Below are positions 60,301 to 64,000 of a stretch of DNA of 64,000 bases, in pieces; positions within the stretch are counted from its first letter, which is position 1; each line of letters starts with the position of its first letter. The position numbers are program-made. Location: NCBI RefSeq assembly GCF_024502345.1, contig NZ_JALDNN010000001.1. One strand, written 5' to 3'. Source of the stretch: Escherichia coli (GTDB lineage: Bacteria; Pseudomonadota; Gammaproteobacteria; Enterobacterales; Enterobacteriaceae).

Positions 60301-63300
60301 TATTTTCCGCGTCAATGTCGAGACAGAAGCTCAGCAGCACGAGTCTTCACGCACCAATGGCGGCGCGCTGATCAAGACTATCAATATTCGCGTTGAGAAC
60401 CCTAACCTGCATGATTTAGCCATTAAAGATGTACCGATTCTCAACGGCGACAAAATTATCTGCTCGCGTCTGAAACGCGAAGAAACCCTAAAAGTTCCTT
60501 CGCCAGATACCATTATCCAACTGGGCGATTTGCTGCATCTGGTGGGGCAGCCAGCGGATTTACATAATGCGCAACTGGTGATTGGTCAGGAGGTCGATAC
60601 TTCGCTGTCCACGAAAGGCACTGATTTGCGCGTCGAGCGTGTGGTGGTCACCAATGAAAACGTGCTCGGAAAACGTATTCGCGACCTGCACTTTAAAGAA
60701 CGCTATGACGTTGTTATCTCGCGCCTGAACCGTGCCGGGGTCGAACTGGTCGCCAGTGGCGATATCAGCCTGCAGTTCGGCGATATCCTCAATCTGGTGG
60801 GGCGTCCGTCCGCAATTGATGCCGTTGCCAATGTGCTGGGGAATGCGCAGCAAAAACTGCAACAGGTTCAGATGCTGCCAGTGTTTATTGGCATCGGGCT
60901 TGGCGTATTGTTAGGTTCTATTCCCGTCTTTGTGCCAGGATTCCCGGCCGCGTTGAAACTGGGGCTGGCGGGCGGTCCGCTGATTATGGCGTTGATCCTC
61001 GGGCGTATCGGCAGTATCGGCAAGCTGTACTGGTTTATGCCGCCAAGTGCCAACCTCGCGCTGCGGGAGCTGGGGATCGTGCTGTTCCTCTCGGTCGTTG
61101 GTCTGAAATCTGGTGGGGATTTTGTAAATACCCTGGTCAATGGCGAAGGGCTAAGCTGGATTGGTTATGGAGCCCTGATCACCGCCGTTCCGCTGATTAC
61201 TGTTGGCATTCTGGCGCGGATGTTAGCCAAAATGAATTACCTGACCATGTGCGGGATGCTGGCAGGTTCCATGACCGATCCTCCGGCGCTGGCGTTTGCT
61301 AATAATCTTCATCCAACCAGCGGTGCGGCGGCGCTCTCTTACGCCACTGTCTATCCGTTAGTGATGTTCCTGCGCATTATCACCCCCCAATTACTGGCGG
61401 TGCTCTTCTGGAGTATCGGTTAACTCTTTTCCGGGTGGAGTCGCCGTAAATGGTACTCCACCTGGTATTCGCTGGCATTTCTGAACATCACTGAATAATT
61501 CAAAAACTCCCCGCTCTCACTATATGACAACGAGGTGATCCGCAGCAGTGGCGTGTGTTCCGCTACCTTCATTTGCCGCGCCAGCAGTCTATCGGCGAGC
61601 ACCGGCGTCAGGCTTTCATAATTACCGCCAATCAAAATCCCACACTCTTGTTCAATATATTCAAACTTCGACCCTTCCAGATGTTGCAGCGAAAGGTTAC
61701 GGAACAGTTTTACCGGCATATAGCTGTCTTCCAGCATCAGCGGTTTCCCTTCCACAAAACGAACGCGACGGGAGAAGTAGATCTGCTCGTTGATTTGAAT
61801 CCGTAACTGGCTGGCAATGGCCGGAGGCGCAGGCATGATTTCAAAAATCAGCACCTGGCTGGTGACCGTTTTTCCCTGCCGTTTTAACACCTCCACCAGC
61901 CCGGTCAGGCTGGCGGTTTGATGCAGTACATCTTTACGCACCAGGTAAGTGCCGCTGCCGTGGCGGCGGACCACCAATCCCCACGCTACCAGCAGGTCAA
62001 TGGCTTTACGGATGGTCATCCGCGATACCGCAAATTCTTCCGCCAACTTTTTTTCACCGGGAAGAAGGCTATTTAGCGTGAAATCTGCGGAATTAAGTCG
62101 AATTCTTAACCGCTCCGCAATGCTTTTGTAGATCATCTCTAGATCTCTTTTTTGCCTGCAAGCCCGGGTAATGCGCCCACAAGTTCTGCTTAATCGATTG
62201 AAAAAACATCTTTTTTTTAAACATGTGTTCGATGCTGTGTACCAGTGCTCACAGATGTCTACTTTTTCGCGAAAACGTAGATCTCTACCGCCCAACGAAA
62301 AGCATGAAAGCGATCACGAATCCCATTGGGTCGTCATGTTCTGCCGATCGCATCTTCCTATCCTCGCTCCAGGCCTGCCGCATAACCAATCAGGCTTCCT
62401 ACTTACAGAATTGAGAAAAGAGGATGTGGAAATGCTCAGTCAAATTCAACGCTTTGGCGGCGCGATGTTCACGCCAGTGCTGCTGTTTCCCTTCGCCGGG
62501 ATTGTGGTGGGTCTTGCCATCTTGCTGCAAAACCCGATGTTTGTCGGGGAATCACTGACCGATCCGAACAGTTTATTCGCGCAAATCGTACACATTATTG
62601 AAGAGGGAGGTTGGACGGTATTCCGTAATATGCCGCTGATTTTTGCTGTCGGTTTACCCATTGGCCTTGCTAAGCAAGCGCAGGGACGTGCTTGTCTGGC
62701 GGTGATGGTGAGTTTCCTGACCTGGAACTATTTCATCAACGCGATGGGAATGACCTGGGGAAGCTACTTCGGCGTCGATTTCACTCAGGACGCGGTGGCC
62801 GGTAGCGGTCTGACAATGATGGCGGGAATTAAAACCCTCGATACCAGCATTATCGGCGCAATTATCATTTCCGGCATTGTGACGGCGCTGCATAACCGTC
62901 TGTTCAATAAAAAACTGCCGGTGTTTCTCGGCATTTTCCAGGGGACGTCTTATGTGGTGATTATCGCCTTCCTGGTGATGATCCCCTGTGCCTGGCTGAC
63001 ATTGCTCGGCTGGCCAAAAGTACAAATGGGGATTGAATCTCTGCAAGCGTTCCTGCGTTCGGCGGGTGCACTTGGGGTCTGGGTTTACACCTTCCTCGAA
63101 CGTATTCTGATCCCAACCGGTTTACACCACTTCATCTACGGACCGTTTATCTTTGGTCCGGCAGCTGTTGAAGGCGGCATTCAGATGTACTGGGCGCAGC
63201 ATCTGCAAGAGTTCAGTCTGAGCGCCGAGCCGCTGAAATCGTTGTTCCCGGAAGGCGGTTTTGCCCTGCACGGTAACTCAAAAATCTTTGGTGCCGTGGG

Positions 63301-64000
63301 CATTTCTTTAGCGATGTACTTCACTGCCGCACCGGAAAATCGGGTAAAAGTGGCGGGCTTGCTGATTCCCGAAACCTTAACCGCCATGCTGGTGGGAATT
63401 ACCGAACCGCTGGAATTTACCTTCCTGTTCATTTCACCGTTGCTGTTTGCGGTACACGCCGTGCTGGCGGCCTCAATGTCGACCGTGATGTATCTCTTTG
63501 GTGTGGTGGGCAACATGGGCGGAGGTCTGATTGACCAGGTTTTACCGCAAAACTGGATCCCGATGTTCAGCAACCACGCGGATATGATGCTGACCCAAAT
63601 CGCCATTGGGTTGTGCTTTACCCTGCTGTACTTCGTGGTTTTCCGCACACTGATTCTGCAGTTCAACATGTGCACGCCGGGACGTGAAGATGCGGAAGTG
63701 AAACTCTACTCAAAAGCCGAATACAAAGCCTCGCGAGGCCAAACCACCGCGGCAGAGCCAAAAAAAGAGCTGGATCAGGCTGCCGGTATCCTGCAAGCCC
63801 TGGGCGGGGTCGGCAATATCTCCAGCATTAACAATTGCGCGACGCGTTTACGTATTGCACTGCATGACATGTCACAAACGCTGGATGACGAAGTCTTTAA
63901 AAAGCTGGGAGCGCACGGCGTCTTCCGTAGTGGCGATGCCATTCAGGTGATCATTGGTCTGCATGTATCCCAGCTGCGTGAACAGCTCGATAGCTTAATT

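What the first reader, a model, noticed from the sequence alone, without database searches (positions are those of the whole stretch)
62432..64000. Contiguous glvC-glvB-type PTS EIICB reading frame
A single uninterrupted frame of at least 523 codons covers the membrane EIIC region and the EIIB cysteine motif (NCATRLR). As I recall, in K-12 the corresponding glv locus is split or annotated as a pseudogene, so this strain may retain the functional ancestral alpha-glucoside EIICB. This depends on a remembered K-12 annotation.
Basis: partly seen in the sequence, partly recalled or inferred. Interest (0 to 1): 0.3.

Follow-up and report, generated by a model that had tools for sequence, protein, structure and literature searches.

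The report
Unsplit glvCB alpha-glucoside transporter gene
This is the ordinary, already catalogued E. coli gene for an alpha-glucoside sugar-uptake protein, whole here as in most E. coli and split only in the laboratory strain K-12, and its partner enzyme gene just past the window is most likely broken.

Summary
Window 62432-64000 (+) is one open frame of 523 codons encoding an alpha-glucoside PTS EIICB (TIGR02005, 955 bits against a cutoff of 607). It has the GITEPLE motif and the EIIB cysteine C469.

K-12 glvC and glvB cover the same 1,617 bp and are split by one change, CAG to TAG at codon 369. The window has C at 63536.

The intact frame is not special:
- The CAG 81-mer is exact in 3,094 of 4,274 complete E. 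coli genomes that carry the stretch.
- The TAG 81-mer is exact in 348, and all 40 listed are laboratory or K-12-type strains.
- The exact 538-aa protein is already in NCBI.

"Functional" is doubtful:
- Two public contigs 100% identical to the last 9,569 nt of the window show the stop 15 codons on, then a glvG (6-phospho-alpha-glucosidase) with a 508-bp frameshifting deletion.
- The window allele carries A314E and D159N at conserved positions. The E314 81-mer is exact in none of 4,142 complete genomes.

About 30% of E. coli keep the whole operon, about 48% have the deleted glvG, and about 21% lack the locus.

Verdict: a known gene in the commonest E. coli state. Low interest.

The parts
62432..64000 (+). 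glvCB coding sequence: the first 1,569 of 1,617 nt (523 of 538 codons), encoding an alpha-glucoside-type PTS EIICB. It runs off the window end.
   Evidence: Open frame. TIGR02005 955 bits against a cutoff of 607. The exact 538-aa product is on record as 'PTS alpha-glucoside transporter subunit IICB [Escherichia coli]'.
62459..63469 (+). EIIC membrane (permease) domain, residues 10-346.
   Evidence: PF02378, 237.5 bits. Aligns to the solved E. coli PtsG EIICB chains 9hnp/8qsr.
63395..63415 (+). GITEPLE motif (residues 322-328), the conserved sugar-binding motif of glucose-family EIIC proteins.
   Evidence: Coordinates. Aligned to GITEPIE of PtsG. Nearly invariant among 18 aligned sequences.
63371..63373 (+). 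Codon 314, GAA (Glu). It is Ala in all 17 other sequences aligned and in PtsG, and lies in a hydrophobic segment 11 residues before the motif Glu325. Possible loss-of-function missense.
   Evidence: The 81-mer around it has no exact match in 4,142 complete E. coli genomes.
62906..62908 (+). Codon 159, AAT (Asn). It is Asp in 16 and Glu in 1 of the 17 other sequences aligned.
63536..63538 (+). Codon 369, CAG (Gln). This is the site of the K-12 amber TAG that splits glvC from glvB.
   Evidence: Population counts. Gln in all 18 aligned sequences.
63563..63565 (+). Met378, the codon used as the start of the 161-aa 'GlvB' in K-12. Here it is an internal codon.
   Evidence: K-12 annotation. NF007255 profile position 1 aligns to residue 378. 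Coordinates.
63659..63958 (+). EIIB domain (residues 410-509), with the phosphorylatable Cys469 (63836-63838) in NNCATRLR (63830-63853).
   Evidence: TIGR00826 109 bits and PF00367. Aligns to solved PtsG EIIB domains 1o2f/3bp3. N467-R474 are invariant.
62137..62431 (.). The 295-bp divergent yidP-glvCB control region. It holds a 17-nt imperfect palindrome at 62253-62286 (AGATGTCTAC...GTAGATCT) and the Shine-Dalgarno-like sequence at 62418-62424.
   Evidence: No sigma-70 consensus was found. Reading the palindrome as a YidP operator is inference only.
61420..62136 (-). yidP, a GntR/HutC-type regulator (238 aa), intact and identical in protein sequence to K-12 YidP. Presumed regulator of glvCB-glvG.
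   Evidence: identity. (GntR family models, best NF007292 at 146.5 bits, below its cutoff of 281). (Pfam GntR + UTRA).

Best explanation
The frame is glvCB, the E. coli counterpart of Klebsiella aglA and Bacillus malP/glvC. It is a single-chain Enzyme IICB of the glucose family of the phosphotransferase system, specific for alpha-glucosides. It is divergently transcribed from the GntR-type regulator yidP and is followed by glvG (6-phospho-alpha-glucosidase).

Mechanism, inferred from the family: phosphate passes from PEP through EI, HPr and EIIA-Glc (Crr, because the protein has no EIIA domain) to Cys469 of the EIIB domain. It then passes to the 6-OH of the glucosyl moiety of an alpha-glucoside as the sugar crosses the EIIC domain. 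GlvG would then split the phospho-disaccharide into glucose-6-phosphate and the aglycone.

Shown here:
- The window carries the ancestral unsplit frame (CAG at codon 369).
- K-12 carries a lineage-specific amber at that codon.
- The unsplit frame is the majority state in E. coli.

Inferred:
- In this strain the system is a remnant, not a working pathway. The contigs identical to the window have glvG cut by a 508-bp frameshifting deletion.
- The EIICB carries A314E (and D159N) at conserved positions, which may impair it.
For: Family and domains. Alignment to solved PtsG, with the catalytic motifs conserved.

K-12 split caused by one nonsense change.

Allele frequencies: the CAG 81-mer is exact in 3,094 of 4,274 genomes. 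The TAG 81-mer is exact in 348, and all 40 listed are laboratory or K-12-type strains.

The exact protein is on record in E. coli.

Sequence beyond the window: L005 and L006 match the window with 0 mismatches over 9,569 nt. They show the stop after 15 codons and an 815-bp glvG. L003, L004 and L008 (3-7 mismatches) also have the short glvG region.

The deletion lies between two GAACCACT repeats and shifts the frame after about residue 200.

The full-length 440-aa GlvG matches the solved 6-phospho-alpha-glucosidase 6DUX (914 bits) and the maltose-6'-phosphate glucosidase 1U8X (747 bits).

Locus classes in 5,426 genomes:
- about 1,653 hold the segment deleted in the short form, that is a long glvG;
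- about 2,600 have the gene but not that segment;
- about 1,147 lack glvCB entirely.

A314 and D/E159 are conserved in all 17 other sequences aligned.

Literature: the K-12 homologues of aglA/aglB are regarded as cryptic or truncated, MG1655 does not grow on isomaltose or methyl-alpha-glucoside, and AglA and GlvC work through Crr (PMC5309279).
Against: The window stops before glvG, so its state here is inferred from identical contigs and not read directly.

A close relative (L007; 19 mismatches to the window over 9.5 kb, 26 differences from the window-identical L005 over 17 kb) encodes the identical EIICB protein next to an intact 440-aa glvG. The state of glvG therefore varies within this clade.

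glvCB shows strong historical purifying selection in E. coli: pairwise dN/dS of 0 to 0.21, and 36 synonymous against 8 non-synonymous segregating sites. The gene has therefore not been drifting for long.

The effect of A314E is untested. No promoter consensus was found upstream, and expression is unknown.
Confidence: 0.85

Rival explanations
1. One reading: this strain keeps a fully functional ancestral alpha-glucoside uptake and catabolism system, with an intact EIICB, an intact GlvG beyond the window, and YidP control.
For: The frame is open with all catalytic motifs. yidP is intact. About 30% of E. coli genomes, including O157:H7 F8797, E. coli B, NCTC9066 and OW1E2, have all three genes annotated as intact, apart from a frameshifted yidP in E. 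coli B. L007 combines this very EIICB protein with an intact glvG.
Against: All five contigs nearest the window, two of them identical over 9.5 kb, have the 508-bp glvG deletion. A314E sits at a position that is Ala in every other sequence aligned. No search here found a report of alpha-glucoside growth through the native E. coli genes.
Confidence: 0.08
2. The EIICB is expressed and active without its hydrolase. It is retained for another role, for example phosphorylating and taking up a glucoside handled by another enzyme, affecting the phosphorylation state of Crr, or acting as an entry route for other compounds.
For: The frame stays open in most of the roughly 2,600 genomes whose glvG lacks the deleted segment. 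dN/dS among three alleles linked to the deletion is still 0.09-0.16. Overexpressed K-12 glvCB was among the transporters reported to sensitise E. coli to aminoglycosides (PMC12412646).
Against: Those dN/dS values rest on 2-3 non-synonymous changes and mostly reflect history before the deletion. Damaging-looking changes accumulate in several alleles: the K-12 amber plus P238Q, P243L in 94-3024, and A314E in the window allele. Truncated forms occur in Shigella and in other E. coli. About 21% of genomes have lost the whole locus. Taking up a phospho-sugar that cannot be split is normally harmful (general knowledge).
Confidence: 0.07

Closest known systems
E. coli K-12 glvC (b3683) + glvB (b3682)
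   Same: Same locus, same 1,617-bp span, same neighbours (yidE, yidP upstream). 99.1% nucleotide identity, with 14 differences in 1,569 nt.
   Different: K-12 has TAG at codon 369, giving a 368-aa GlvC that lacks the last membrane segment and a 161-aa GlvB restarting at Met378. K-12 also has P238Q. The window has Gln369, Pro238, and its own N159 and E314.
Full-length E. coli glvCB as in strain 94-3024 (WP_000952118.1), O157:H7 F8797 and NCTC9066 (WP_000952127.1), and E. coli B
   Same: Same 538-aa unsplit protein, with 3 amino-acid differences from the 94-3024 allele. The exact window protein is itself on record (EIT4640428.1 and others).
   Different: The window allele (N159, E314) is a minority allele and is absent from the 5,426 complete genomes. 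O157:H7 F8797, NCTC9066 and E. coli B have an intact downstream glvG.
Klebsiella pneumoniae AglA (EIICB) with AglB, and the named alpha-glucoside-specific IIBC proteins of Enterobacter
   Same: Same family model (TIGR02005), same EIIC-EIIB order, no EIIA domain, and pairing with a GH4 6-phospho-alpha-glucosidase. Enterobacter proteins named alpha-glucoside-specific IIBC are 80% identical over full length. Full-length E. coli GlvG scores 914 bits against the solved 6-phospho-alpha-glucosidase 6DUX. AglA/AglB let E. coli use isomaltose, methyl-alpha-glucoside and sucrose isomers through Crr (PMC5309279 citing Pikis 2006).
   Different: The AglA sequence itself was not aligned here. The substrate range of the E. 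coli protein is untested. In the window's lineage the hydrolase partner is deleted internally.
Bacillus subtilis MalP/GlvC with GlvA (MalA)
   Same: Same kind of two-gene EIICB and GH4 phospho-alpha-glucosidase system. GlvG scores 747 bits against the solved maltose-6'-phosphate glucosidase 1U8X. GlvC works in E. coli through Crr.
   Different: The Bacillus operon uses a different kind of regulator (GlvR, from my own knowledge), whereas the E. coli locus has the GntR/HutC-type YidP. Direct identity to MalP was not measured here.
E. coli PtsG (glucose EIICB; solved structures 8qsr, 9hnp, 9srx)
   Same: Same fold family and domain order. Aligns over residues 3-530 (E about 1e-57), with the GITEP motif, the HH motif and the EIIB Cys conserved.
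   Different: A paralogue with a different specificity. It scores only 242-313 bits on the glucose-specific models, far below their cutoffs.

Membership tests
Alpha-glucoside-specific PTS EIICB (NCBIfam TIGR02005; glucose family of PTS permeases) | Full-length match to the family model above its curated cutoff | tested here: met
   955.3 bits against a cutoff of 607.3, residues 2-523 on profile positions 1-524 of 524.
Alpha-glucoside-specific PTS EIICB (NCBIfam TIGR02005; glucose family of PTS permeases) | An EIIC membrane domain followed by an EIIB domain in one chain, with no EIIA domain | tested here: met
   PF02378 at 10-346 and PF00367 at 453-482, and no EIIA family among the hits. The 15 residues beyond the window in identical contigs add no domain.
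Alpha-glucoside-specific PTS EIICB (NCBIfam TIGR02005; glucose family of PTS permeases) | A phosphorylatable cysteine in the EIIB motif (N-C-x-T-R-L-R) | tested here: met
   Cys469 in NNCATRLR. It is invariant in 18 aligned sequences and aligned to the CITRLR cysteine of PtsG.
Alpha-glucoside-specific PTS EIICB (NCBIfam TIGR02005; glucose family of PTS permeases) | The EIIC sugar-binding motif GITEPxE | tested here: met
   GITEPLE at residues 322-328. The nearby A314E is atypical.
Alpha-glucoside-specific PTS EIICB (NCBIfam TIGR02005; glucose family of PTS permeases) | Genetic linkage to a GH4 6-phospho-alpha-glucosidase gene | tested here: inconclusive
   The window ends before the next gene. 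In contigs identical to the window the gene is present but carries a 508-bp frameshifting deletion. In about 30% of E. coli genomes it is intact.
Alpha-glucoside-specific PTS EIICB (NCBIfam TIGR02005; glucose family of PTS permeases) | Crr-dependent uptake and phosphorylation of alpha-glucosides | not testable with these tools
   Shown only for AglA and GlvC expressed in E. coli (PMC5309279). Never shown for this protein.
K-12-type split glvC / glvB locus | An in-frame stop (TAG) at codon 369 separating a 368-aa GlvC from a 161-aa GlvB | tested here: not met
   The window has CAG at 63536-63538.
NCBIfam NF007255 'PTS sugar transporter subunit IIB' (the name RefSeq gives the full-length protein) | A stand-alone 161-aa IIB protein equivalent to K-12 GlvB | tested here: not met
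   The model matches only residues 378-523, 337 bits against a cutoff of 321. The protein is a 538-aa EIICB, so the name describes a fragment.

The most novel reading that the evidence does not exclude
The E. coli glv locus is not simply decaying. The identical 508-bp glvG deletion, flanked by 8-bp GAACCACT repeats, sits on at least three haplotypes, and two of them have near-identical partners with an intact glvG. It may therefore arise repeatedly as a mutational hot spot. The EIICB would then be kept open by selection in hydrolase-less strains because it has a role of its own, such as signalling through Crr or uptake of another compound.
Probability: 0.06. Interest if true: 0.35.

Novelty: already known. 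Interest (0 to 1): 0.1.

Why it matters
It matters little for biology. The gene, its family, the K-12 split and the cryptic state of the K-12 glv genes are all on record, and the window shows the commonest E. coli configuration.

There are three modest practical points:
1. K-12 is the exception at this locus. Statements about "E. coli glvC/glvB" drawn from K-12 do not describe the species.
2. An open frame is not evidence of a working pathway. The partner hydrolase gene is broken in about half of E. coli genomes, and several alleles carry changes at conserved positions.
3. RefSeq names the full 538-aa EIICB "PTS sugar transporter subunit IIB". A model that matches only residues 378-523, the part corresponding to K-12's GlvB fragment, passes its cutoff, so the K-12 nonsense mutation is echoed in the naming across thousands of genomes.

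Tried and rejected
1. I asked whether the missense hits at conserved positions in glvCB are a consequence of losing glvG (relaxed selection). This is not supported. The window's own allele (A314E) also occurs next to an intact glvG (L007). OW1E2 (long glvG) has P238Q, and E. coli B (long glvG) has L320P and G357S plus a frameshifted yidP. The sample is far too small for a formal test.

2. I tried to decide between a single origin and recurrent origin of the 508-bp deletion from flanking haplotypes. The junction is identical in all carriers, but the 5' haplotypes differ. This is unresolved.

3. I scanned the yidP-glvCB intergenic region for a sigma-70 promoter or a terminator. None was found. 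A 17-nt imperfect palindrome is present, but its role is conjecture.

4. I tried to read the original descriptions, Pikis et al. 2006 by DOI and Reizer et al. 1994 by PubMed id. Neither is held. What I say about them comes from PMC5309279 or from my own knowledge.

5. I considered that the window might be Shigella, because the best identity to any complete E. coli genome is only 99.5%. I rejected this as unnecessary. The exact protein is recorded under E. coli, including on a 4.7-Mb contig, and contigs from two assemblies match the window exactly.

6. I did not predict a structure, because solved PtsG EIICB structures align over the full length.
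Full report
**1. The observation**

Window 62432-64000 on the + strand translates as one uninterrupted frame of 523 codons, from an ATG at 62432 to the end of the window. An AAGAGGA Shine-Dalgarno-like sequence lies at 62418-62424.

The product is not a chance ORF:
- It matches NCBIfam TIGR02005 (alpha-glucoside-specific PTS transporter subunit IIBC) end to end, at 955 bits against a curated cutoff of 607.
- It contains Pfam PTS_EIIC (residues 10-346) and PTS_EIIB (residues 453-482).
- It aligns over residues 3-530 with the solved E. coli PtsG EIICB structures.
- GITEPLE (residues 322-328) and the EIIB cysteine in NNCATRLR (Cys469, 63836-63838) are conserved.

**2. The K-12 comparison**

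In MG1655 the same 1,617 bp are annotated as two genes, glvC (b3683, 368 aa) and glvB (b3682, 161 aa), followed by the pseudogene glvG.

An ungapped comparison gives 14 nucleotide differences in 1,569 nt. The only disruptive one is at window 63536, where K-12 has TAG and the window has CAG at codon 369. K-12 GlvB restarts at Met378, which is an internal codon here.

All 17 other sequences aligned with the window protein have Gln at 369. They come from other E. coli, E. albertii, Enterobacter, Phytobacter, Mangrovibacter and two unnamed groups. The unsplit frame is therefore ancestral and the K-12 amber is derived.

**3. How unusual is the intact frame?**

It is not unusual. The gene is present in 4,279 of 5,426 complete E. 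coli genomes.

| 81-mer centred on codon 369 | Exact matches |
|---|---|
| CAG (window allele) | 3,094 of 4,274 genomes carrying the stretch |
| TAG (K-12 allele) | 348; all 40 listed are laboratory or K-12-type strains (MG1655, DH5alpha, C600, J53 and the like) |

The inferred full-length window protein (523 aa plus the 15 residues found in relatives) is on record exactly. NCBI and UniRef name it [quoted passage not shown]. It has been seen on 55 contigs, one of them 4.7 Mb long.

**4. Beyond the window**

Two public contigs are 100% identical to window 54433-64000, with 0 mismatches in 9,569 nt: L005 (assembly GCA_017173755.1) and L006 (an ENA metagenome scaffold). Three more contigs differ at 3-7 positions.

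In L005, which differs from L006 at only 2 of 17,617 positions, the frame ends 15 codons after the window end (NSHQSAENVAITEAV, TAA). The next gene starts at the overlapping ATGA. So there is no frameshift just past the window end.

In all five of these contigs the next gene, glvG, is the 815-bp form found in K-12. A sixth contig, L007, has 19 mismatches to the window. It encodes the identical EIICB but has a 1,323-bp, 440-aa glvG.

Comparing the two forms shows that the short form is a 508-bp internal deletion between two GAACCACT repeats. It shifts the frame after about residue 200.

The long form matches the solved 6-phospho-alpha-glucosidase 6DUX (914 bits) and the maltose-6'-phosphate glucosidase 1U8X (747 bits).

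**5. States of the locus in E. coli**

| State | Share of 5,426 complete genomes | Examples |
|---|---|---|
| Deleted segment present; glvG annotated "6-phospho-alpha-glucosidase" | 1,653 (about 30%) | E. coli B/BL21, C, ATCC 8739, O157:H7 F8797 |
| Operon present, glvG with the 508-bp deletion | about 48% | the window's state, K-12, 94-3024 |
| yidP-glvCB-glvG absent | about 21% | CT30, where yidE is followed directly by yidL |

The window therefore shows the commonest state.

**6. Is the window's EIICB likely to work?**

Evidence for an intact gene:
- The catalytic motifs are intact.
- yidP is identical in protein sequence to K-12 YidP.
- Pairwise dN/dS among nine E. coli alleles is 0 to 0.21, with 36 synonymous and 8 non-synonymous segregating sites. 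This indicates strong past constraint.

Evidence against a working protein:
- The window allele has Asn159 where the other 17 sequences aligned have Asp or Glu.
- It has Glu314 where all 17 others, and the paralogue PtsG, have Ala. Residue 314 lies in a hydrophobic segment 11 residues before the motif Glu325.
- The 81-mer around codon 314 has no exact match in any of 4,142 complete genomes, so this is a rare allele.

Other alleles carry their own changes at positions invariant in 13 non-E. coli orthologues:

| Allele | glvG state | Changes |
|---|---|---|
| K-12 | deleted | P238Q plus the amber |
| 94-3024 | deleted | P243L |
| OW1E2 | long | P238Q |
| E. coli B | long | L320P, G357S (plus a frameshifted yidP) |

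Truncated forms are also on record from Shigella and from other E. coli. The picture is of a dispensable locus eroding in different ways in different lineages. I could not show that erosion of glvCB follows loss of glvG.

**7. Mechanism**

This is inferred from the family and from the experiments summarised in PMC5309279, not tested here.

1. Phosphate passes from PEP through EI, HPr and EIIA-Glc (Crr) to Cys469.
2. It is transferred to the glucosyl 6-OH of an alpha-glucoside during passage through EIIC.
3. GlvG hydrolyses the phospho-alpha-glucoside to glucose-6-phosphate plus the aglycone.

That paper reports:
- MG1655 does not grow on methyl-alpha-glucoside or isomaltose.
- Growth on these sugars requires a working EIICB plus hydrolase pair and crr.

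Without GlvG, the window's strain should at best accumulate phospho-alpha-glucosides. The locus is therefore best read as a remnant.

**8. Literature and novelty**

Searches for glvC, glvB, glvG, glvCB and yidP found only listings of the genes as putative transporters. I found no study of the intact E. coli operon in the held library. The original papers could not be read.

Nothing here is new in kind. The gene, the exact protein and the K-12 split are all on record.

**9. Verdict**

- Observation: confirmed.
- Interpretation: partly supported. The frame is ancestral and K-12 is split, but this is not strain-specific and the pathway is probably not functional.
- Novelty: already known.
- Interest: low.

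Noticed in passing
window 62432-64000; L001 7133-8749: RefSeq names the full 538-aa EIICB 'PTS sugar transporter subunit IIB'. NF007255 matches only residues 378-523, the part corresponding to K-12's 161-aa GlvB fragment, and passes its cutoff (337 against 321 bits). The more apt TIGR02005 is only a subfamily_domain model. The K-12 nonsense mutation is thus echoed in annotation across thousands of genomes.
   Followed up: partly
L007 10213-10728 compared with L005 10213-10220 (just beyond the window end): The 508-bp glvG deletion has the same junction, between two GAACCACT repeats, in K-12, 94-3024 and the window-identical contigs, yet it lies on at least three different flanking haplotypes. 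Two of these have near-identical partners with an intact glvG (K-12 with OW1E2, L005 with L007). This fits either recurrent deletion or recombination. Unresolved.
   Followed up: partly
window 16516-22719: A 6.2-kb segment between glmS and pstS is absent from K-12. Related genomes annotate it as the lpfO113 long polar fimbriae operon (lpfA-D). In the window an IS1 copy at 20702-21470 lies between the usher ORF (18172-20706) and the lpfD-like ORF (21503-22576).
   Followed up: partly
window 27616-28384: A second IS1 copy, 100% identical to the first and in the same orientation, stands where K-12 has 9.1 kb (3897637-3906734) holding bglGFBH, yieL, yieK, cbrC and part of cbrB. This looks like an IS1-associated deletion of the cryptic bgl operon.
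   Followed up: partly
window 62253-62286 (yidP-glvCB intergenic region): A 17-nt imperfect palindrome, AGATGTCTACTTTTTCG/CGAAAACGTAGATCTCT, with GTCTAC/GTAGAT cores, which resembles GntR/HutC-type operators (from my own knowledge). K-12 differs in the left arm (AGAGGTCTAC), one of 4 differences in the 295-bp region. No binding data exist.
   Followed up: no
L001 6121-6837; L011 101-738: The regulator yidP is itself broken in some strains. It has an internal stop in strain 94-3024 (glvCB intact, glvG deleted) and a frameshift in E. coli B (glvCB and glvG both open). It is intact in the window.
   Followed up: no
protein cluster of P0001: The 90%-identity cluster holding the 538-aa EIICB (8,565 members) also lists 440-aa 6-phospho-alpha-glucosidase sequences as members. 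They are unrelated in sequence. This is probably a clustering artefact, perhaps caused by fused or read-through gene calls across the overlapping ATGA junction.
   Followed up: no
window 39001-64000: The best identity to any of 5,426 complete E. coli genomes is only 99.5% over 25 kb, to bovine and STEC-type strains. Draft and metagenome contigs nevertheless match the last 9.5 kb exactly. The window's lineage therefore has no close match among the complete RefSeq genomes.
   Followed up: no
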